Position numbers and translations under genes: made by a program. From a virus (Duplodnaviria; Caudoviricetes): DNA of 64,000 nt. How positions within the stretch are numbered: the stretch's first letter is position 1; each line of letters opens with the position of its first letter. The notes under the pieces are model-generated. The model was not told the origin of the DNA. It saw only the letters and a list, made by a program, of their open reading frames with translations, and did not search any database. Location of the stretch: IMG/VR virus record IMGVR_UViG_2687453119_000006, positions 50,544-114,543 of that record. The stretch is one strand, 5' to 3'. This document shows positions 5,866-39,398 of the stretch, piece by piece.

Positions 5866-6132
5866 TTAACCCAAATGCGAGCCGCTTCCGTCGAGAATCC
5901 TGACGTAGGTGCCGCTCTCGTGCAGGAACAGGATCTTGCGATCGACGAGGAGGTCGAGGCCGGCCTTGTACTCGGCCGCCGTGCCCTTGTCGCGGAAGAG
6001 GAATGGGTAGTTGATCTTCTCGATGTGCAGCCGGCCGTCCTGCACCGGCTCGACCTCCCGGCAAATCTCCAGGAGCCGCCTGGCAGCAGCCTCTGGCTTC
6101 GCATAAGGCCGTTCCTCGATCATCTTCTTCAT
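5866..6132 (-). CDS. Hypothetical protein, possible winged-helix fold
   Basis: MKKMIEERPY...LHESGTYVR; start overlaps the stop of the upstream gene. Confidence 0.65.
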   Translation of the reverse strand: MKKMIEERPYAKPEAAARRLLEICREVEPVQDGRLHIEKINYPFLFRDKGTAAEYKAGLDLLVDRKILFLHESGTYVRILDGSGSHLG

Positions 6133-6572
6133 GCGCCAATTCCCCGGTGGTTGGTGCGGACGTGGTCCGGAATGCCGGCATCCGTGATTTCGGCGCCGCA
6201 GAAGCATCTCGACCGGCCTGAAGTCCGCTGCGTCGGCAGCTGCAGGTGCTCGTCGTGCATCCGGCCCTTCCAGGCTTGGAAGTCGCGGTTCTGCCGCCAC
6301 AGCTCGTAGTGCGCCTCGGTACGGGTTGCTGACAGCTGCCGCCAGGCCTCCTCGAAGCCGGCGCGCGCGTCATCGAAGGTCTCGCCGGTTCCGTGGGTCT
6401 GCTGGCCGGGATCGCAGCCAGGATAGAACCCACAGCTCCAGCCCCATTGCGTGGCGTGCGTGGGCACGCCAGCTCTCCGGCCGATGTGGCCGACCCGGAC
6501 GTCCCCGAAGTAGACGAACCAGCCACCCTGGTGGTGTGGATCATTGTCCGGCCGACGTGTGAGCTGAGGCAT
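6129..6572 (-). CDS. Hypothetical protein with C-terminal CxC...H motif
   Basis: 147-aa ORF coupled to the downstream gene. Confidence 0.7.
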   Translation of the reverse strand: MPQLTRRPDNDPHHQGGWFVYFGDVRVGHIGRRAGVPTHATQWGWSCGFYPGCDPGQQTHGTGETFDDARAGFEEAWRQLSATRTEAHYELWRQNRDFQAWKGRMHDEHLQLPTQRTSGRSRCFCGAEITDAGIPDHVRTNHRGIGA

Positions 6573-13262: not shown

Positions 13263-13337
13263 GTCAGTGTAGCTCAATGGTAGAGCAGCGGCTTCATAAG
13301 CCGCAGGTCGTTGGTTCAACTCCTCCCGCTGGCACCA
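13263..13337 (+). tRNA. tRNA with CAT anticodon (Met or Ile2); T-stem has two mismatches
   Basis: Acceptor GTCAGTG/CGCTGGC, D-arm AGCTCAATGGTAGAGC, anticodon stem GCGGC/GCCGC, TTCAA loop, encoded CCA. Confidence 0.8.
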
Positions 13338-18362: not shown

Positions 18363-18436
18363 GACGCGGTGGCCGAGCGGCCAGGCAGCGGACTGCAACT
18401 CCGCGGAGGCTGGTTCGACTCCAGCCCGCGTCTCCA
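18363..18436 (+). tRNA. tRNA-Cys(GCA)
   Basis: Full cloverleaf, GACGCGG/CCGCGTC acceptor, U discriminator, CCA. Confidence 0.95.
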
Positions 18437-22719: not shown

Positions 22720-22796
22720 TGGCAAGTAGCTCAGATCGGTAGAGCGCCTCGCTGTTAACGAGGATGTCGCAGGTTCGAGTCCTGCCTTGCCAGCCA
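22720..22796 (+). tRNA. tRNA-Asn(GTT)
   Basis: Full cloverleaf, U1-A72, G discriminator, CCA. Confidence 0.95.
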
Positions 22797-33291: not shown

Positions 33292-33507
33292 ATGGCAAAA
33301 GCAAAGAACGCGGCCACCGAAGAGGTGGTCGCGGTGGAGCCGCAGGCTCCCGAACCGGCTCCGATCATGTATGAGGTGACCCTGAACGGTCGCTTCACTC
33401 ACATGGACTTTCCCTACCTGCCTTCGCATCACCACATCGTCGACAAGGCGATCTACGATGCGATGGTCGAAGCGGGGGTAGTTGCCGATGTCAAGCAACT
33501 TTCCTGA
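33292..33507 (+). CDS. Small hypothetical protein
   Basis: In-operon ORF. Confidence 0.6.
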   Translation: MAKAKNAATEEVVAVEPQAPEPAPIMYEVTLNGRFTHMDFPYLPSHHHIVDKAIYDAMVEAGVVADVKQLS

Positions 33508-35182
33508 GCTTGTATTCAGCGACGACGAAGACTTCACGGCAGATCGATTGAACTTGGCGATGCAGGTGCTTGATCAGCGCCTGCGTTCGCTGGAGCCTTT
33601 TTCTCCGAGCTGGGAGCAGGCAGTCAACGATCTGCGTCTGGTCGGACTCTCTCGACTGAACGACGCCATCCTGCCGGCGTATCAGCGCATCCAGCTGCTG
33701 TCCACGCTCGGCTTCCTGTTCGCTGGCTCGTCCAGCGAAGTCGCTCTTACCCAGGACATGACCGCGACGTTTGTCATTGACGACGAGACGGAAAAGTCCC
33801 TGTTCACCCCGACGCCATTCCTGGCGCTGACCCGCTCCTCGACGATAGATGACTATGCGATTGCGCAGTTGATCTCGTATGAGCAGGCGACCGGCACCTT
33901 GATGGTGAAGGTCAAATCGATCACCGGCAGCCCTGGTCCTTTCACGGACTGGCAGATCGGCGCCTGTGCGGCGTCAACCATCGCAGCGATGGCCTACTTC
34001 ACGCAGATCGATGCGGCCCGCAACGCAGCCAACGTTGCAAAGGCAGCAACAGCTGCCGACCGCGTACAGACCGGTCTCGACCGCATCCAGACGGGTGTGG
34101 ATCGGAATGCCGCGGCGCAGTCGGCTGTAGCAGCGTCTGCCTCTGCTGACCGAGCCGGCACCTGGGATCCGACCAACTACGCCCTCAAGTCGTATGTGGA
34201 CGGCAAGATCCAAGCGCTGGTCGGCACCGCGCCGGCCACCCTCGACACGCTCGCGGAAATCGCGGCGCAGATGCAGGCGGACGAGAGCGGCTTTGCCGCG
34301 CTGTCCACCACGGTCTCCGGCAAGCTGACGGCAACGCAGAACCTGAACGACCTGACCGACAAGGCACAGGCTCGCATCAATCTGGGCGTCACTTTCGCCA
34401 ACCCGACCAGCAAGTCGGGCCTAACGGCGGCGAACGGGTCGGCCGTTACCTACATGCGGTCTGATGCTGCTCCTGCGATCGACGTTTCGATCGCGCCGAC
34501 CTGGACCAACAAGCACATCTTCCAGTGGAACTCTGGAGCGACATACTGCATCAACGTCCAGACCTATGGCGGCTTGACCATCTACGCGCCGGACCAGGGC
34601 TCGGCGTTCATGACGTTCCATCGCGGCGCATACGCGAGCCAGTTTGGGCTCGACGGTGACAACTACTACCGATGGGGTGGTTGGTCGGATGGTGCTGGCG
34701 GAGTCCGTATGTACCTGAGCCCTGGTGGCTTGTTGTACAGTGCAGGTTACGGCGCCTCGACGACGCCTGTTGGTGGTCAGGTGCGCGCGGCCGGCGACAT
34801 CATCTACGGCCTGTCGGATCAACGTCTGAAGGACGACATCCAGATCATTGAAGATGCTCTGGAGAAGATCGACCAGCTCGATGGCGTCACCTGGGTTCAG
34901 AGCGATCTGGCCCGCGAGGTTGGTGCACCGGTTCAAGACCGTCGCAAGGCCGGTCTGTTGGCGCAGCAGCTGGAGAAGGTTCTGCCCGAAGCGGTCGGCC
35001 TGGCTCCGTTCGACACGAACAAGCTGATGAAGAGCCGTACGGGCTTGAACCTGCTGAACATCCAGTACGAGCAGGTTTCTGGTCTGCTGGTGGAAGGCAT
35101 CAAGGCGCTGAAGCGCAAGAACGAGGCGCTCGAAGACCGAGTCGCACGACTCGAAGCGATCATCGAGAAGCTGGGGGTGTAA
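33488..35182 (+). CDS. Tail fibre with C-terminal S74 intramolecular chaperone domain
   Basis: AP.TLDTL.EIA motif, LSDQRLKDDI autocleavage motif, GLLAQQLEKVLPEAV, terminal coiled coil. Confidence 0.9.
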   Translation: MSSNFPELVFSDDEDFTADRLNLAMQVLDQRLRSLEPFSPSWEQAVNDLRLVGLSRLNDAILPAYQRIQLLSTLGFLFAGSSSEVALTQDMTATFVIDDETEKSLFTPTPFLALTRSSTIDDYAIAQLISYEQATGTLMVKVKSITGSPGPFTDWQIGACAASTIAAMAYFTQIDAARNAANVAKAATAADRVQTGLDRIQTGVDRNAAAQSAVAASASADRAGTWDPTNYALKSYVDGKIQALVGTAPATLDTLAEIAAQMQADESGFAALSTTVSGKLTATQNLNDLTDKAQARINLGVTFANPTSKSGLTAANGSAVTYMRSDAAPAIDVSIAPTWTNKHIFQWNSGATYCINVQTYGGLTIYAPDQGSAFMTFHRGAYASQFGLDGDNYYRWGGWSDGAGGVRMYLSPGGLLYSAGYGASTTPVGGQVRAAGDIIYGLSDQRLKDDIQIIEDALEKIDQLDGVTWVQSDLAREVGAPVQDRRKAGLLAQQLEKVLPEAVGLAPFDTNKLMKSRTGLNLLNIQYEQVSGLLVEGIKALKRKNEALEDRVARLEAIIEKLGV

Positions 35183-35183
35183 G

Positions 35184-35417
35184 ATGGCTGTTCCGTCATC
35201 TGGCGCTGTCGGCTTCTCGACCGTCAACTCCGTCTTCGGCTACGGCATCGCGATGAGCAGCTACGTCGGCCGGCCCTACTACTACTACGAAGTGAACTGG
35301 GGCGTTAGGTCCGGCACCTTCCCAGGCTCCAACTTCCCGATGTCTCTCTTCTACGGGAAATCCAACCACGACGAATGGAACTGCGCCTGCGCCTGCGCCT
35401 GCGCGTGCGGCAAGTGA
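35184..35417 (+). CDS. Putative fibre-tip protein / RiPP-like precursor with C-terminal (Cys-Ala)4-Cys
   Basis: 1 nt after the fibre stop; MAVPSSGA...MSLFYGKS N-domain then NHDEWNCACACACACGK. Confidence 0.8.
   Translation: MAVPSSGAVGFSTVNSVFGYGIAMSSYVGRPYYYYEVNWGVRSGTFPGSNFPMSLFYGKSNHDEWNCACACACACGK
35382..35408 (+). repeat. In-frame hexamer tandem repeat (TGCGCC)3 TGCGCG TGC
   Basis: Read directly; encodes CACACACAC. Confidence 0.9.
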
Positions 35418-35423
35418 GGATCA

Positions 35424-35744
35424 ATGACCAAGCCACCGAGCACCACCTTCAGCTACCGGATCAATCACTGGAGCAAGGACGGCTGGGCTCGAGTCGAGTA
35501 TCGGCACGAGACGCTCGGTAGCTTGGTCAAGCAGGTCTTCATCCCGCTGAACCATTCGGAAGAGGAGCAGCGTGGCGCCGTCATCATGCAGTTCCCCTGG
35601 CAATCCTTCCACGCCAGGTATCTTGAAATGTTGGCGCAGGCGGCTGCTCCGGCCCCCGCGGCAATGGAAGGACAATTCACGCACCGCATCGATCGTCCCA
35701 TGGAGGATCCGGTCGGTTTGCCCATGGAAACCCAAAAGGTGTAG
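35424..35744 (+). CDS. Hypothetical protein in the modification cassette
   Basis: GAGGA RBS; 6 nt after previous stop. Confidence 0.7.
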   Translation: MTKPPSTTFSYRINHWSKDGWARVEYRHETLGSLVKQVFIPLNHSEEEQRGAVIMQFPWQSFHARYLEMLAQAAAPAPAAMEGQFTHRIDRPMEDPVGLPMETQKV

Positions 35745-35746
35745 CG

Positions 35747-36292
35747 ATGCAGTTCAGGCGCATCCGTTTCGAGAACTTCACGATCACGATCTTCACGGCG
35801 CATGCCGGCGAAGAGAGGGTCTGTCCTCCGTCTGAACTAACCCGCGGCCTGACCGCGTCAGACGCTCCGGCCATCGCTCACCTGCTCGAAGGCAAGGATG
35901 ATGCTCGGCCGCTCCACACCATTCCGGTGTACACCAAGGGCGGCTTCGAGGCTCTCGGCGGCGATCACGCGCCGGACCCTCGCCCGGCTGGTAGCGGCGC
36001 CACTCAGTTCGTGAGGGGCATCGACAACTACAAGCTCCGCGCCACAGCGCCGGATAGCGAATATCACTGCATCACCCCGAAGAGCAAAGAGCCGGTGTTC
36101 TGGCAGCGCTCATTCGTCGGCGGGAAGGCCGGCGACACGTTCGAGGTTCTGCCCAACAGCTACCTCTACATCGCAGAGGGCAAGATCGAGCTGGCTCACC
36201 AGACGTTCGTCGGCCCCACGATGCTTGAGATCACCAAGCCGCACACGGCCAAGATCACCGATCCGGTGATGGGCGCCAAGCTCTGGCGCTGA
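35747..36292 (+). CDS. Hypothetical protein, cupin-like beta-barrel
   Basis: Beta-strand pattern (YHCITP, YLYIAEGKIEL); 2 nt spacing. Confidence 0.6.
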   Translation: MQFRRIRFENFTITIFTAHAGEERVCPPSELTRGLTASDAPAIAHLLEGKDDARPLHTIPVYTKGGFEALGGDHAPDPRPAGSGATQFVRGIDNYKLRATAPDSEYHCITPKSKEPVFWQRSFVGGKAGDTFEVLPNSYLYIAEGKIELAHQTFVGPTMLEITKPHTAKITDPVMGAKLWR

Positions 36293-36302
36293 AAGGAGCC
36301 CC

Positions 36303-36932
36303 ATGCCCACGATCCGCTTCCTGACGCCTGCCGACTTTGGCGATATGTGCGACATCATCGACAAGCACAGCAGCGGCATGGGCGCATGGTGCAACGATCC
36401 GACCGCCCCGGTGAAACCGAACTTCCGCCAGCTCGCGAAGGACCATGTGGACCTTTGCTTCGAGCAGGCTATGTCGAACTTCTGGGGCTATTTTGACGAC
36501 TCCGGCAAGCTCGTCGCCTGGGTCAACTTCACCCGATGGGCTGATCCGATCAACATCACCATCCGCTCCGTAATCGAAGATCCGGACGCCGACCTGCCGC
36601 GCCGCGATGGCGCTGTCTGGTCGGAAGCCGCGGTCGATCTGGCGAACTGGGGCATGGGGTACTTCTGGTCGGAGGGCGTCGAGAATTTCTGGTGCCGCAT
36701 GTATGCCGGCAAAGAGGATCGGCACATCTCGGATCACCCCAACTGCATGCTGACTCAATACCAGCGCGAAAGGGTCAAGTTCATCCGGGCCGGCGAGCAA
36801 CCGCCGCCCGAGTATCGCAGGGTCAGCTGGTCGCCGTTTGACGACGACACAGCGATCTATCGGTTCTCCGACACATTGCCGCTGCTGGCGTATCTCGAAA
36901 GTGCAAATGATCCGACTGGAAATGCTGAGTGA
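36303..36932 (+). CDS. GNAT-like fold protein
   Basis: IRFLTPADF..M..I start and WGYFDDSGKLVAW hairpin; AAGGAG RBS. Confidence 0.55.
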   Translation: MPTIRFLTPADFGDMCDIIDKHSSGMGAWCNDPTAPVKPNFRQLAKDHVDLCFEQAMSNFWGYFDDSGKLVAWVNFTRWADPINITIRSVIEDPDADLPRRDGAVWSEAAVDLANWGMGYFWSEGVENFWCRMYAGKEDRHISDHPNCMLTQYQRERVKFIRAGEQPPPEYRRVSWSPFDDDTAIYRFSDTLPLLAYLESANDPTGNAE

Positions 36933-38205
36933 GAACGGAGAGGTCGTGCCTCTGTTCTACGATCAGCACACCTCACGTCTGCTCGACAAGGACGGCTTCA
37001 AGGCCGTCGACTACACCAACAACCCGATGTATGACCCGGAGCCATCGCAGCGCCGGCCGTTCATCGCGGTGGACTACGATCAGCCAGGGCGCAAGGTCCG
37101 CGAGGTCCGGAAGCTGAAGATCCAGCTCGGCCTCGGCTGCAACAAGTCCTGCTCATACTGCCTCCAGGCGATACAGGTTCAGAAGGCCGCGGCGACAAGC
37201 ACGCGGGATGCGTCGGTATTTCTGGCGAACATCGACGGCTGGATCGTCAACCCGGAGGGGATGGAGAAGGTCGAGCTGTGGGGTGGCGAGCCGCTGCTCT
37301 ACTGGAAGAAGATCGAGATCCTCGCCCCGGCGTTGATCGCGAAGTTCCCGAACGCTCAGTTCTCGATCATCACGAACGGCGAGCTGCTCACTCGAGAGAT
37401 CGTCGATCAGCTCAAGGCCTGGAATTTCTCTCTGACCATCAGCCATGATGGCCCGGGGCAGGCGGTAAGGGGAGACGACCCGTTCGAAGACCCTCACAAA
37501 TTTGCCATGATCCAGTACGCGCAGAAGACGTTTCATCCGCGCTTCTCGTTCAACGCTGTGCTCACCCCTAAGAGCCACGACGTCAACGCCATCATCGACT
37601 GGTTCCACGATTACTTCCCGGGCTGCAACGTCGGCTTCGAGGGAGTCGTTCACAGCTACGCCAGCGACCCGGCATCGATCTTCTCGATCGAGCAGCTGGC
37701 GCAGTTCAGCGACACGCTGTCCCGACAGCTGGCCGATGGATCGGCTCTCCGATCCCCCGCGATCATGGACAAGCTGCGCAGGTCGGTGAACTCGTTCGTC
37801 AATGAGCAGTCCTCGGAGACGCTGTTCCAGAAGTGCGGCATGGACATGCCGGAGTATCTGGCGGTCGACCTGAAGGGCAACGTCATGACCTGCCAGAACG
37901 TGGGCGCCAACGGCAACCACAAGATCGGGCACGTCAGCGACTTCGAGAACATCGCGCTCAACACCTCCAAGCACTGGAGCAAGCGCCCAGAGTGCCAGAG
38001 CTGCCCCGTGCTGCAGCTTTGCCAAGGCGCCTGCATGTACCAGGGAGGGGACAACTGGACGCACAGCTGCAACGCTGAGTTCTTCTACAACCTGGCCTTC
38101 TTCAGGGCCGCGCTCTTCATCCTCACGGGACGATGGCTGGTTGGTTTCAGCGGCGATATCGTGCGTCCGAAACTGAAGAAGGATCGCGATGTCGAAGTTC
38201 GCTGA
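36907..38205 (+). CDS. Radical SAM/SPASM domain enzyme
   Basis: CNKSCSYC (CX3CX2C), WGGEPLL, ITNG, ISHDG; SPASM cysteines KCG...TCQ...CQSCPVLQLCQGAC...SC. Confidence 0.95.
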   Translation: MIRLEMLSENGEVVPLFYDQHTSRLLDKDGFKAVDYTNNPMYDPEPSQRRPFIAVDYDQPGRKVREVRKLKIQLGLGCNKSCSYCLQAIQVQKAAATSTRDASVFLANIDGWIVNPEGMEKVELWGGEPLLYWKKIEILAPALIAKFPNAQFSIITNGELLTREIVDQLKAWNFSLTISHDGPGQAVRGDDPFEDPHKFAMIQYAQKTFHPRFSFNAVLTPKSHDVNAIIDWFHDYFPGCNVGFEGVVHSYASDPASIFSIEQLAQFSDTLSRQLADGSALRSPAIMDKLRRSVNSFVNEQSSETLFQKCGMDMPEYLAVDLKGNVMTCQNVGANGNHKIGHVSDFENIALNTSKHWSKRPECQSCPVLQLCQGACMYQGGDNWTHSCNAEFFYNLAFFRAALFILTGRWLVGFSGDIVRPKLKKDRDVEVR

Positions 38206-38920
38206 ACTGGTGGGGATTCTTGACAAAATACCCCACCTGTTCTTAGAAAAGGCCTACGATGCGACACGTCTACAAACTGAGTTAGACGCCATCGATCCGG
38301 CACTTTTCGTGCCCTTCCGTTCCAAGAGCAGAAACGCTGACCACATCGCCGAGTTCTGGCGAGGTCTTTCGCTGGTCGCTCCGAGCGGATCTCTCCATGA
38401 CGATTTGACCGAGGTTCCATACGAAGGCCGCACAGGCTACGTCTGGACCCCGGTCGCCGAGAGCAGCCCCTACATCAAGCAGCTCGTGACCGAGCTTGGC
38501 GGGGAGGGGCAGCGCGCGCGGCTCATGTGCGTGAAGGCAGGCGGCAGTCTGACCTGGCACCGCCATGGATCAGAGCTTTCGATGATCGTCGGCGCCCACG
38601 GCCGGCGGCCGAACTGGTACGAGCTGATCGTCCACGTCCCCATCCGCACCAACCCGGACTTCAGCTACGAGGTCATCGACACTCGGGTCTACGAGCTGGC
38701 GGACTACTCGGCCGGGAAGCTGGAGATCCACCGGAAGAACTACCCGAAGGGCGAGGCCTGGGCGTTCAACGGTGCTCACTACCACAACGTCTTCAACCGC
38801 TCCGAGACCGAAGACCGCTACGCCATCATGCTGACCCTCGACATCAGGATGAGGAAGACGTTCGACATCGTGTCGAAGGCGGTCGAGAGCTACGAGGGGC
38901 CACTCCTGACAGGGCTCTGA
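38189..38920 (+). CDS. Asp/Asn beta-hydroxylase-like Fe(II) oxygenase
   Basis: RARLM...AGG.L.WHRH, VHVPIRTNP, GEAW.FN....H.V.N....DR motifs. Confidence 0.8.
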   Translation: MSKFAELVGILDKIPHLFLEKAYDATRLQTELDAIDPALFVPFRSKSRNADHIAEFWRGLSLVAPSGSLHDDLTEVPYEGRTGYVWTPVAESSPYIKQLVTELGGEGQRARLMCVKAGGSLTWHRHGSELSMIVGAHGRRPNWYELIVHVPIRTNPDFSYEVIDTRVYELADYSAGKLEIHRKNYPKGEAWAFNGAHYHNVFNRSETEDRYAIMLTLDIRMRKTFDIVSKAVESYEGPLLTGL

Positions 38921-38921
38921 A

Positions 38922-39344
38922 ATGGAAACCATCATCTCCGCGAAGCCGCCCGACGTGCTCGCGGACAACTTCATTGTCGCCACGAACGAAGACTGGGTTC
39001 GTGAGTGGCAAATCAAGAACAGCGGCGTGATCGTCCCGATCCAGCCCGACTGGAAGCTGTACATGCAGCTGCAGCGGACATCGACCGGCGATCTCGGCGT
39101 GACGTGCTCTACCGACAATGGCCGCCTCGTGGTCGTCGATCAGGGCGCCGGCAAGTTCGGTCTCAGGCTGAAGCAGGCGGACGCCGCCCAGATCAGCCCT
39201 GCGGGCTACCAATATGACATCGTCCTCGTTGCTGGCGATGGCATCTACCGCCTGGTGACAGGCACCATCACGGTCGACCAGGGGATCACCAACATCCCCG
39301 GCCAGGAGAAGTGGATTCACTATCCGCTGATCCTTCGACCGTAA
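38922..39344 (+). CDS. Virion structural protein, BppU N-terminal-like Ig fold
   Basis: YQYDIVL......RLV.G.ITV..GIT pattern. Confidence 0.6.
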   Translation: METIISAKPPDVLADNFIVATNEDWVREWQIKNSGVIVPIQPDWKLYMQLQRTSTGDLGVTCSTDNGRLVVVDQGAGKFGLRLKQADAAQISPAGYQYDIVLVAGDGIYRLVTGTITVDQGITNIPGQEKWIHYPLILRP

Positions 39345-39372
39345 CTCATCGCCAACAACCTTCACCTCCACG

Positions 39373-39398
39373 CCGCCCCCTTCCGGGCGGTTTTTTTG
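39373..39398 (+). terminator. Intrinsic terminator closing the baseplate-fibre-rSAM unit
   Basis: CCGCCC/GGGCGG stem plus T7. Confidence 0.85.

What the first reader, a model, noticed from the sequence alone, without database searches (positions are those of the whole stretch)
35184..35417. Bipartite 77-aa protein: fibre-attachment-like leader plus a (Cys-Ala)n core
Residues 1-60 (MAVPSSGA...VNSVFG...GTFP...MSLFYGKS) resemble, from recall, the short N-terminal module of proteins encoded just after phage fibres, which normally carries a large adhesin domain. Here that domain is replaced by 17 residues with five alternating cysteines. The module could serve as both RiPP leader and virion anchor. 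The Asn, Asp, His and Trp just before the core are candidate hydroxylation or crosslink sites.
Basis: partly seen in the sequence, partly recalled or inferred. Interest (0 to 1): 0.85.

Follow-up and report, generated by a model that had tools for sequence, protein, structure and literature searches.

The report
Clip-on cysteine-ladder tip for phage fibre
A 77-residue prophage protein joins a small domain typical of proteins encoded right after tail fibres to a tail of alternating cysteines, and a radical-SAM enzyme encoded nearby probably modifies that tail, so this phage may chemically finish its host-binding tip.

Summary
The ORF is real. It encodes 77 aa ending NHDEWNCACACACACGK, with five Cys at alternate positions. 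It is conserved in 22 homologues and under purifying selection (dN/dS 0.08-0.29).

Residues 1-59 are a widespread N-terminal module. In 49-51 of 79 profile hits it heads longer, ladder-free proteins, some Gly-rich. Its genes sit directly after tail-fibre genes.

The cysteine ladder tracks a phage radical SAM/SPASM enzyme (phrog_1802):
- 39 of 51 viral loci holding this enzyme carry a same-strand ORF that ends in (N)CxCxC or has the ladder capped by a self-cleaving Hint domain.
- Five of the 12 misses lack upstream sequence.
- 0 of 80 loci with ladder-free module proteins hold the enzyme.
- Ladder carriers elsewhere are true fibres (collagen-like, T4 gp36-like), so the N-module cannot be a general leader.

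Best reading (about 0.6): a clip-on fibre-tip protein whose C-terminal ladder is the substrate of the downstream enzyme, probably for thioether crosslinks, plus an Asp/Asn-hydroxylase-like enzyme.

Not shown: the chemistry, binding to the fibre, and expression.

This scan had already noted the ladder-enzyme pairing in at least 8 other genomes. I found it in no paper. New here is the ladder on a separate small module protein.

The parts
33482..35182 (+). Tail fibre, 566 aa, with a C-terminal Peptidase_S74 intramolecular chaperone. The self-cleavage motif SDQRLK starts at residue 445, so the mature fibre would end at residue 444 (about nt 34813).
   Evidence: Pfam PF13884 E 9.9e-14 at residues 445-505; 28 PHROG tail-fibre families; motif position. 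The cleavage site is inferred from what is known of S74 domains (recalled).
35171..35177 (+). Shine-Dalgarno-like GGGGGTG, 6 nt before the ATG. The fibre stop TAA ends 1 nt before the ATG, which suggests translational coupling.
   Evidence: Read from the sequence.
35184..35363 (+). Residues 1-60: the N-module shared with proteins encoded after tail fibres. The model has a helix at 11-18, a beta-hairpin at 31-45 and a short helix at 53-56.
   Evidence: Profile search; sequences; AlphaFold2 block pLDDT 70-82 for residues 1-60.
35364..35381 (+). Residues 61-66, NHDEWN: a conserved junction. E64, W65 and N66 are invariant even in distant ladder-bearing relatives.
   Evidence: Alignments A2 and A6.
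35382..35417 (+). Residues 67-77, CACACACACGK, plus the stop: the cysteine ladder, two residues from the free C-terminus. It is the presumed enzyme substrate.
   Evidence: Ladder-enzyme linkage. Low model confidence here (pLDDT 64, then 49).
35381..35409 (+). Hexanucleotide tandem repeat (CTGCGC, 4.8 copies) that encodes the ladder. The number of units differs among close homologues (5 or 6 Cys).
   Evidence: TRF; homologue sequences.
35424..35744 (+). 106-aa protein of unknown function, conserved only in the close Bradyrhizobium-type clade.
   Evidence: No family hit; found in 7 loci counting the window; Atlas scores below 0.9.
35747..36292 (+). 181-aa protein of unknown function, specific to this clade.
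36303..36932 (+). 209-aa protein of unknown function, specific to this clade.
36838..38205 (+). Radical SAM/SPASM enzyme. The start is uncertain: TTG 36838, ATG 36907 or ATG 36922. The CxxxCxxC motif reads CNKSCSYC.
   Evidence: PF04055 E 3.2e-10; phrog_1802 E 5.1e-55; SPASM TIGR04085 at 39.8 bits against a cut-off of 27. The nearest equivalogs (PapB, QhpD, nif11, geopeptide, CcpM) are all far below their cut-offs. 40% identical to the phage JWF enzyme, E 2e-82.
38189..38920 (+). 243-aa Asp/Asn beta-hydroxylase-like protein.
   Evidence: PF05118 below threshold (18 bits against 22.6). 7 of 35 homologues carry a precomputed PF05118 hit, and several are named Asp/Asn beta-hydroxylase by their sources.
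38922..39344 (+). 140-aa protein, phrog_1084; weaker match to an L-shaped tail-fibre assembly family.
   Evidence: phrog_1084 E 1.8e-9 and phrog_3304 E 5.4e-6.
39372..39391 (+). Terminator-like hairpin (7 pairs, then a T run) that closes the fibre-to-140-aa block before the sheath gene.

Best explanation
The 77-aa protein is a minimal, separately encoded fibre-tip protein. Residues 1-60 are a small domain that in many phages heads variable receptor-binding-type proteins encoded directly after the distal fibre gene. It most likely docks the protein onto the fibre (inferred). In place of a large adhesin domain it carries a C-terminal Asn-Cys ladder. That ladder is the substrate of the radical SAM/SPASM enzyme encoded about 1.5 kb downstream in the same transcription block. 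By analogy with its nearest characterised relatives, the enzyme probably activates the Cys thiols on an auxiliary Fe-S cluster and forms thioether crosslinks to neighbouring residues or to the C-terminal residue. The Asp/Asn-hydroxylase-like neighbour may add hydroxyl groups. The product would be a rigid tip that reduction cannot open, made in the reducing cytoplasm where disulfides cannot form. Shown: the gene, its conservation, the module's link to fibre genes, and the ladder's link to the enzyme. Inferred: docking, the chemistry, and a role in host binding.
For: Real, selected gene. Module: 79 profile hits; of the 52 longer than 111 aa, 49 have no ladder. Two of ten scanned carry Gly_rich_2 and one has a weak GP38 match. 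In 80 viral loci the gene lies just after another ORF. Of 66 distinct upstream ORFs, 28 match phrog_25788 'tail fiber protein' and 19 match a long-tail-fibre distal-subunit family. 19 of the 80 loci have an S74 domain upstream. In Synechococcus phage MinM2 the gene overlaps the end of an annotated tail-fibre gene. Ladder and enzyme: 39 of 51 enzyme loci hold a same-strand ORF ending in a ladder or in ladder+Hint. That is 51 of 2556 same-strand frames within 6.5 kb, against 6 of 2659 on the other strand, 1 of 1800 farther away, and 12 of 5712 in control viral loci. 11 of 18 enzyme clades score by the strict rule and 3 more carry variants. The ladder is always at or within 7 residues of the stop, or is followed by a self-cleaving domain: Hint in JWF gp028, L018 and L054, and an S74-like SDDRLK in L040. 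Carriers include collagen-repeat proteins. 0 of 80 ladder-free module loci hold the enzyme. The whole cassette recurs with the 77-aa gene in L154 and L209. Enzyme type: SPASM domain, with thioether-forming maturases as the nearest NCBIfam models and CteB among the nearest solved chains. One co-directional block ends at a terminator-like site. No protease or exporter was found in the block. Precedents read: NxxcB makes a Cys-to-Asn beta-thioether and tolerates Ala, Gln and Asp (PMC9389541, passages). PapB also couples Cys to a C-terminal residue (PMC12373016, abstract). CrpC installs ranthionine links on a 28.8-kDa Cys-rich protein (PMC13692751, abstract and Discussion).
Against: Foldseek found no match at E<=0.001 in PDB or BFVD, so no fold link to gp38, and a profile search of PDB sequences found nothing. 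The ladder is modelled with low confidence. 4 of 18 enzyme clades show no ladder nearby (L042, L044, L053, L055), so the enzyme may have other substrates, or ladders of two Cys such as NCQCGN in RSP15 gp048. Every ladder-bearing module gene with a long flank belongs to one Bradyrhizobium-type clade. All specific maturase models score far below their cut-offs, so the chemistry is open. No RRE was detected. A Cys ladder could equally bind metal.
Confidence: 0.6

Rival explanations
1. The ladder is a metal-binding or Fe-S-binding tip with no covalent crosslinks. Cys side chains on one face of a beta-strand would coordinate ions, as the His-x-His repeats of the T4 gp37 needle coordinate iron (recalled). 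The radical SAM enzyme would then act on something else or help metal loading.
For: Alternating Cys put all thiols on one face of a strand (geometry). Some carriers are trimeric collagen-like fibres. The CrpA authors suspect metal binding for their modified Cys-rich protein (PMC13692751, Discussion). The between-Cys residues vary freely.
Against: The tight, strand-specific linkage to a SPASM maturase-type enzyme is unexplained if no modification occurs. Asn before the first Cys and N/D/A between the Cys match acceptor preferences of known thioether enzymes (PMC9389541, passages). The need for a free C-terminus is not explained by metal binding alone.
Confidence: 0.15
2. The 77-aa protein is a fibre assembly factor that acts transiently. 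It docks on the fibre through the N-module but is not part of the finished virion, and the ladder serves as a Zn or redox handle.
For: Its position between the fibre gene and a protein matching a fibre-assembly PHROG. Small proteins encoded after fibres are often chaperones (general knowledge).
Against: The upstream fibre already carries its own S74 intramolecular chaperone. In other phages the ladder is part of the fibre polypeptide itself, which points to a structural role.
Confidence: 0.1
3. It is the precursor of a released RiPP, such as a bacteriocin-like or signalling peptide. Residues 1-60 would be the leader and the ladder the core, cut off and exported during lysogeny or lysis.
For: Small precursor next to a radical SAM/SPASM enzyme. 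Tandem multi-copy small carriers occur in some loci: two in L008, three in L032-L034, four in L050. The nearest enzyme models are RiPP maturases.
Against: No protease or exporter was found by Pfam or NCBIfam in the block. The gene is coupled to the fibre gene inside the tail operon. The 'leader' is a folded domain shared with ladder-free proteins of 116-535 aa encoded after fibre genes. The same ladder ends true fibres elsewhere.
Confidence: 0.08
4. The ladder is an incidental product of a slippery hexanucleotide repeat and has no function of its own.
For: The ladder DNA is a 6-nt tandem repeat, and the unit number varies.
Against: The Cys positions are invariant or nearly so across 22 homologues and in distant relatives, while the residues between them change, so the repeat is not simply copied. 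dN/dS is 0.08-0.29. The ladder recurs in unrelated carriers next to the same enzyme.
Confidence: 0.02

Closest known systems
NxxcB / NxxcA (streptococcal radical SAM RiPP; review PMC9389541, passages read)
   Same: A radical SAM enzyme acts on a Cys next to Asn. It makes a Cys-to-Asn beta-thioether, tolerates Ala, Gln and Asp as acceptor, and activates the thiol on an auxiliary cluster. The phage ladders are Asn-Cys with N, D or A between the Cys.
   Different: NxxcA is a short secreted-type precursor with one NxxC motif. Here there are five alternating Cys at a protein C-terminus inside a phage tail operon. No sequence membership was shown, and no NxxcB model was among the 25 of 40 NCBIfam matches shown.
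PapB / PapA (freyrasin ranthipeptide; PMC12373016, abstract read)
   Same: Best-scoring NCBIfam model for the window's enzyme (E 1.2e-20). It forms Cys thioethers to residues bearing a carboxylate and can couple a Cys to the C-terminal residue, which would fit the ladder's constant need for a free C-terminus.
   Different: The score is 74 bits against an equivalog cut-off of 340, so it is not a PapB. PapA uses Cys-x3-Asp repeats, not CxC. The C-terminal coupling was shown for D- or beta-amino-acid ends in vitro.
CrpC / CrpA of Methanococcus voltae (PMC13692751, abstract and Discussion read)
   Same: A SPASM radical SAM enzyme installs ranthionine links on a Cys-rich protein rather than a peptide. 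This is a precedent for protein substrates.
   Different: Archaeal and not viral. CrpC has an RRE that engages the substrate N-terminus, and none was detected here. CrpA is 28.8 kDa. Its Supplemental Data set 1 lists similar clusters 'across all domains of life'; I could not see it, so it may or may not include phage examples.
T2/S16-type gp38 tail-fibre adhesin (Pfam GP38, PF05268; its architecture is recalled)
   Same: A separately encoded protein whose gene follows the distal fibre gene, with a small N-terminal part and a variable, often Gly-rich, receptor-binding part. One long relative of the module has weak GP38 and phrog_2056 'host specificity' matches.
   Different: The 77-aa protein has no GP38 match, and no fold or sequence match to solved structures. 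It works like gp38 at most; it is not shown to be a member.
Fibre-borne Cys ladder with Hint cap plus phrog_1802 enzyme
   Same: An orthologous enzyme (40% identity), the same Asn-Cys ladder, the same strand, and a similar distance.
   Different: There the ladder is part of a 483-aa fibre and is exposed by Hint self-cleavage. Here it sits two residues from the stop of a 77-aa module protein, next to a fibre that ends in an S74 chaperone, with four extra clade-specific genes.

Membership tests
GP38-type fibre-tip adhesin (PF05268) | Match to the GP38 profile | tested here: not met
   No Pfam hit for the 77-aa protein. Relative P0035 scores 20.5 bits against a cut-off of 25, over its residues 82-214, not over the N-module.
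GP38-type fibre-tip adhesin (PF05268) | Gene directly downstream of the distal fibre gene | tested here: met
   The ATG lies 1 nt after the fibre stop. For relatives of the module: 28 of 66 upstream ORFs match a tail-fibre PHROG, 19 of 80 loci have S74 upstream, and MinM2 is an annotated case.
GP38-type fibre-tip adhesin (PF05268) | Physical attachment to the fibre tip | not testable with these tools
Radical SAM/SPASM thioether RiPP systems (sacti- and ranthipeptides) | Radical SAM core with CxxxCxxC plus a SPASM domain | tested here: met
   PF04055 E 3.2e-10; TIGR04085 at 39.8 bits against 27.
Radical SAM/SPASM thioether RiPP systems (sacti- and ranthipeptides) | Membership of a named maturase equivalog (PapB, QhpD, CcpM, SCIFF and others) | tested here: not met
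   All are far below their cut-offs, e.g. PapB 74.1 against 340 and QhpD 65.2 against 453.
Radical SAM/SPASM thioether RiPP systems (sacti- and ranthipeptides) | Cys-bearing substrate gene next to the enzyme | tested here: met
   The ladder ends at 35408 and the enzyme gene starts at 36838-36922 on the same strand. The pairing holds in 39 of 51 loci.
Radical SAM/SPASM thioether RiPP systems (sacti- and ranthipeptides) | Leader recognition element (RRE), leader protease or exporter | tested here: not met
   No such family was found in any of the seven cassette proteins by Pfam or NCBIfam. A divergent RRE is not excluded.
Radical SAM/SPASM thioether RiPP systems (sacti- and ranthipeptides) | Thioether product | not testable with these tools
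   Needs mass spectrometry.
Phage Cys-ladder plus phrog_1802 enzyme module (unpublished as far as searched) | Enzyme of phrog_1802 | tested here: met
   E 5.1e-55; 34-47% identity to the enzymes of the other clades.
Phage Cys-ladder plus phrog_1802 enzyme module (unpublished as far as searched) | At least 3 alternating Cys at a free or self-exposed C-terminus, usually after Asn | tested here: met
   NCACACACACGK followed by the stop.
Phage Cys-ladder plus phrog_1802 enzyme module (unpublished as far as searched) | The carrier is a tail fibre | tested here: not met
   The carrier is a 77-aa module protein, and the fibre is a separate gene. This is the variant feature.
Asp/Asn beta-hydroxylase (PF05118), for the 243-aa neighbour | Profile match above threshold | tested here: inconclusive
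   18 bits against 22.6 for the window protein. 7 of 35 homologues have a precomputed PF05118 hit, and six carry that name from NCBI, UniRef or JGI.

The most novel reading that the evidence does not exclude
Tailed phages of several morphotypes use a dedicated radical SAM/SPASM enzyme to weld a cysteine ladder at the free distal end of their receptor-binding proteins. This would be a covalent staple that reduction cannot open, made in the cytoplasm. In this Bradyrhizobium provirus the ladder has moved onto a 60-residue clip-on domain, so the chemically cured tip is an exchangeable module. Slippage of the hexanucleotide repeat that encodes it tunes ladder length.
Probability: 0.4. Interest if true: 0.9.

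Novelty: new variant of a known kind. Interest (0 to 1): 0.78.

Why it matters
Enzymatic post-translational crosslinking of a phage receptor-binding tip is described in none of the papers I could search. If true, it adds a chemical layer to host recognition and virion stability. It would explain why radical SAM genes labelled 'anaerobic sulfatase-maturating enzyme' sit in tail modules. It would also give protein engineers a natural system in which a short C-terminal tag (N-CxCxC) is recognised on very different carrier proteins. The 77-aa protein is the smallest natural carrier seen here, and so the most convenient substrate for working out the chemistry.

Tried and rejected
- Family libraries: Pfam, PHROGs and NCBIfam gave nothing for the 77-aa, 106-aa, 181-aa and 209-aa proteins.
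- tblastn of the 77-aa protein against annotated phages gave only a chance-level hit, E 3.
- Profile search of PDB sequences with the module alignment: one hit at E 0.65, a haemagglutinin, taken as noise.
- Foldseek of the model against PDB and BFVD: no match at E<=0.001. The best BFVD rows are uncharacterised phage proteins and a 'phage tail protein' at E 0.15 and 0.74, probably relatives of the module.
- hhalign among the accessory families of different clades (106, 181, 209, 243, 140 aa, the 30-locus accessory family, the L016 oxygenase, JWF gp029): all probabilities were at most 1.9%. Only the enzyme and the ladder are shared between clades.
- ESM Atlas for the 106-aa protein: best score 0.81, no named family.
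- The exact DNA pattern for EWNCxCxCxC in species-representative genomes gave 65 stretches. Only 2 are true family members (L154, L201, both Bradyrhizobium); the rest are out-of-frame or chance matches.
- The metagenome scan with A6 gave 5 loci, and only one new locus had a long flank (L209).
- The viral scan with A6 returned only loci or contigs already in hand.
- Expression: no RNA holder listed.
- Literature: searches found no paper on a radical SAM enzyme acting on a phage fibre or on a Cys ladder in phage tail proteins. The SPASM and tail-fibre passages of PMC7159879 concern other systems. Supplements were closed. Supplemental Data set 1 of PMC13692751 could bear on priority.
- I considered the phage tRNA-Cys and tRNA-Asn genes as support for ladder translation and rejected this as too weak to use.
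Full report
THE OBSERVATION

The last 17 residues, NHDEWNCACACACACGK, hold five Cys at alternate positions. The ATG lies 1 nt after the TAA of the upstream gene and is preceded by GGGGGTG. The next gene starts 6 nt after the stop.

The ladder DNA is a 6-nt tandem repeat at 35381-35409, 4.8 copies. That raised the question of whether the ladder is just a slippery repeat. It is not:
- A search of 5.8 billion proteins found 22 full-length homologues of 72-82 aa, where named all from Bradyrhizobium, plus one 101-aa chimera, P0023.
- In their alignment D63, E64, W65, N66, C67, C69, C73, C75 and K77 are invariant, and C71 and H62 are present in at least 90%. The residues between the Cys vary among A, D, N, M, T and V.
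- Eight genes taken from loci give dN/dS of 0.08-0.29 at dS 0.5-2.8 in 27 informative pairs; the 28th pair is identical.

SURROUNDINGS

The window is part of a 114.5-kb provirus record rated 94% complete. Around the ORF lies a contractile-tail module:
- Baseplate genes.
- A 752-aa protein (phrog_17470).
- A 566-aa tail fibre with a C-terminal Peptidase_S74 intramolecular chaperone (PF13884, E 9.9e-14). Its SDQRLK motif starts at residue 445.
- The 77-aa gene.
- Three unknowns of 106, 181 and 209 aa.
- A radical SAM/SPASM enzyme: PF04055; phrog_1802 E 5.1e-55; SPASM TIGR04085 above its cut-off.
- A 243-aa protein with a sub-threshold Asp/Asn beta-hydroxylase match.
- A 140-aa protein (phrog_1084; weaker match to a fibre-assembly family).
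- A terminator-like hairpin at 39372-39391, and then the sheath gene.

Homologues of the 243-aa protein are named Asp/Asn beta-hydroxylase by several sources, and 7 of 35 carry a precomputed PF05118 hit.

The enzyme's best NCBIfam models are PapB (ranthipeptide), QhpD, the nif11 and geopeptide maturases, and CcpM. All are far below their cut-offs. Its nearest solved chains include CteB, 5wgg. It is therefore a peptide- or protein-modifying SPASM enzyme of no named subfamily.

THE N-TERMINAL MODULE

An hmmsearch with the family alignment against 1.84 billion representatives gave 79 hits at E<=1e-3. I fetched all of them (two were already held) and sorted them with a crude length and regex rule:

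| Class | Count |
|---|---|
| Short (111 aa or less) with a ladder of 3 or more Cys | 15 |
| Short with only CxC | 4 |
| Short without Cys, some with a Gly-rich tail | 7 |
| Module + ladder + Hint (P0038) | 1 |
| Longer proteins, 116-535 aa, without a ladder | 49 |
| Flagged as possible Hint (P0093 confirmed by Pfam; P0068 not checked) | 2 |
| False positive (P0097) | 1 |

In the long proteins the match is profile positions 1-59, mostly at the very N-terminus. Of ten long proteins scanned, two carry Gly_rich_2 (PF21722). One has a weak GP38 adhesin match below the cut-off and a phrog_2056 'tail fiber protein; host specificity' match.

A scan of IMG/VR with nine close long members gave 80 loci, with these results:
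- None of the 80 module ORFs has a ladder.
- Of 66 distinct ORFs ending just upstream, 28 match phrog_25788 'tail fiber protein', and 18-19 match long-tail-fibre distal-subunit and tail-fibre families.
- 19 of the 80 loci have an S74 domain upstream.
- In the annotated Synechococcus phage MinM2 the module gene overlaps the end of a 'tail fiber domain-containing protein' gene.

AlphaFold2 with 99 sequences models residues 1-60 at block pLDDT 70-82, with a helix, a hairpin and a short helix. The ladder comes out at 64 and then 49. No fold or sequence match to solved structures was found. I therefore do not file the protein under GP38. It may work like a gp38-type tip protein.

THE LADDER AND THE ENZYME

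The lead came from Achromobacter phage JWF. Its enzyme gp030 is 40% identical to the window's (E 2e-82). Two genes upstream, the 483-aa fibre gp028 is annotated with T4 gp36 and Hint similarity. It contains N-CNCDCNCNCS followed at once by the CFPAGT start of its Hint domain. Two further cases:
- The jumbo phage RP12 has an unannotated 65-aa ORF (L003:2837-3034) ending NCNCNCACTRGSL, upstream of three radical SAM genes.
- RSP15 gp048, 'putative side tail fiber', ends NCQCGN.

I then fetched 51 IMG/VR loci by the enzyme alone and scanned all six frames. 39 of the 51 hold, on the enzyme's strand, a frame of at least 50 aa that ends in 3 or more alternating Cys within 10 residues of the stop, or that has such a ladder followed by a Hint start. 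The 12 misses break down as follows:
- 5 have under 2 kb of upstream sequence (L006, L009, L014, L043, L045).
- 3 carry variants. L036 has a Cys-rich tail 22 residues from the stop. L040 has a ladder followed by an S74-like SDDRLK. L049 has a ladder followed by a Gly-rich tail.
- 4 show nothing (L042, L044, L053, L055).

Counts by frame:

| Set of frames | Hits | Frames |
|---|---|---|
| Same strand, within 6.5 kb of the enzyme | 51 | 2556 |
| Opposite strand, within 6.5 kb | 6 | 2659 |
| Farther away, same strand | 0 | 863 |
| Farther away, opposite strand | 1 | 937 |
| The 80 control loci | 12 | 5712 |

At 60% enzyme identity there are 18 clades: 11 score by the strict rule, 3 carry variants and 4 show no ladder.

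Carriers differ widely:
- The 77-aa family.
- Proteins of about 95-110 aa ending NCNCNCRC.
- Three or four tandem small or medium proteins.
- Proteins of about 615 aa with collagen repeats, ending NCNCNCNCNCDCSNCSNCK.
- Collagen+Hint fibres.

Only the enzyme and the ladder are shared between clades; the accessory genes are clade-specific. An oxygenase recurs in a second clade as an unrelated 2OG-Fe(II) family, just below its threshold.

Conversely, 0 of the 80 ladder-free module loci (776 kb) hold the enzyme. Where the 77-aa family was found independently of the enzyme and with enough flank (L154, L209), the whole cassette is present. L201 is cut before the enzyme's position. L207, L210 and L211 are short contigs. 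In L211 a divergent ladder protein again follows an S74 fibre.

The adhesin domain is indeed replaced by a ladder, and ladder versions do track the radical SAM gene. But the same ladder is served by the same enzyme family on carriers that have no N-module. So the module is unlikely to be the leader the enzyme reads. The constant features are the Asn-Cys ladder and a free C-terminus: either a stop 0-7 residues away, or a self-cleaving Hint or S74 domain that would expose one. That these domains self-cleave is recalled knowledge, not tested here.

MECHANISM

This is inferred. The nearest characterised enzymes make thioethers from Cys:
- NxxcB links Cys to the beta-carbon of Asn and accepts Ala, Gln and Asp (PMC9389541, passages read).
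- PapB links Cys to Asp or Glu, and even to a C-terminal residue (PMC12373016, abstract read).
- CrpC modifies a whole Cys-rich protein (PMC13692751, abstract and Discussion read).

I therefore think the enzyme crosslinks the ladder, and the hydroxylase-like protein may add hydroxyl groups. The result would be a covalent knot at the distal end of the fibre apparatus, made in the reducing cytoplasm where disulfides are not available. In this provirus the knot sits on a clip-on protein rather than on the fibre itself.

The main rival is a metal-binding needle, by analogy with the recalled His-x-His iron sites of T4 gp37. A transient assembly factor and a released RiPP are less likely, for the reasons given under the rival explanations.

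LIMITS

- Neither binding to the fibre, presence in virions, nor expression could be tested.
The divergent short ladder proteins therefore lack genomic context, and all long-flank examples of the ladder-bearing module gene come from one clade.

PRIOR KNOWLEDGE

Nine literature searches found no paper on this pairing. Supplements were closed.

After my own analysis I looked up the scan's notes. Follow-up agents had reported the fibre ladder + Hint + radical SAM pairing in at least 8 other genomes, also as unpublished. Those notes also gave me the CrpC and NxxcB papers, which I then read myself. New in this window are the ladder on a separate 77-aa module protein beside an S74 fibre, and the extra hydroxylase-like and unknown genes.

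Noticed in passing
window 13263-13337, 18363-18436, 22720-22796: The provirus encodes tRNA-Met(cat), tRNA-Cys(gca) and tRNA-Asn(gtt). Cys and Asn are the two residues of the typical ladder, though this phage's own ladder is Cys-Ala. This may be coincidence.
   Followed up: partly
L003:2837-3034 (Ralstonia phage RP12, NC_041911): An unannotated 65-aa ORF ending NCNCNCACTRGSL lies between ORF074 and ORF075, upstream of three annotated radical SAM genes (ORF076, 077, 079).
   Followed up: partly
L040 about 6050-6076; L049 about 6334-6384: In two clades the ladder lies downstream of the enzyme and is not terminal. In L040 it is followed by an S74-like SDDRLK motif, a third kind of self-cleaving cap beside a plain stop and Hint. 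In L049 it is followed by a 125-aa Gly-rich tail.
   Followed up: partly
L008:7165-7629 (same contig as L138); L201:5911-6336: Two tandem paralogues of the 77-aa gene (77 and 72 aa, about 46% identical) occur in the Bradyrhizobium hipponense-type prophage. L032-L034 have three tandem small carriers and L050 has four.
   Followed up: partly
L008:11837-12583; L009:3585-4502: A second, diverged copy of the 243-aa hydroxylase-like gene follows the first in two related loci.
   Followed up: no
P0046, P0052, P0076 (representatives): Short module proteins of 75-76 aa have a Gly-rich tail in place of the ladder, after a similar NEW junction. This suggests the C-terminal tail is swappable.
   Followed up: no
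P0023 (101 aa): Its first 26 residues match the family, and the rest is unrelated sequence. It is probably a frameshift or assembly chimera on a 750-bp contig.
   Followed up: no
L114:1089-1613; L115:1789-2313: There is a weak similarity (25% identity, E about 3e-5) to the 243-aa hydroxylase-like protein just upstream of a ladder-free module gene, without any radical SAM gene.
   Followed up: no
L016:7276-8184 and 29 further loci (e.g. RSP15 gp047, L002:6146-6958): An accessory family of about 240-340 aa with a conserved C-terminal part lies between ladder carrier and enzyme in 30 of 52 loci, but not in the window's clade. It has no Pfam match.
   Followed up: partly
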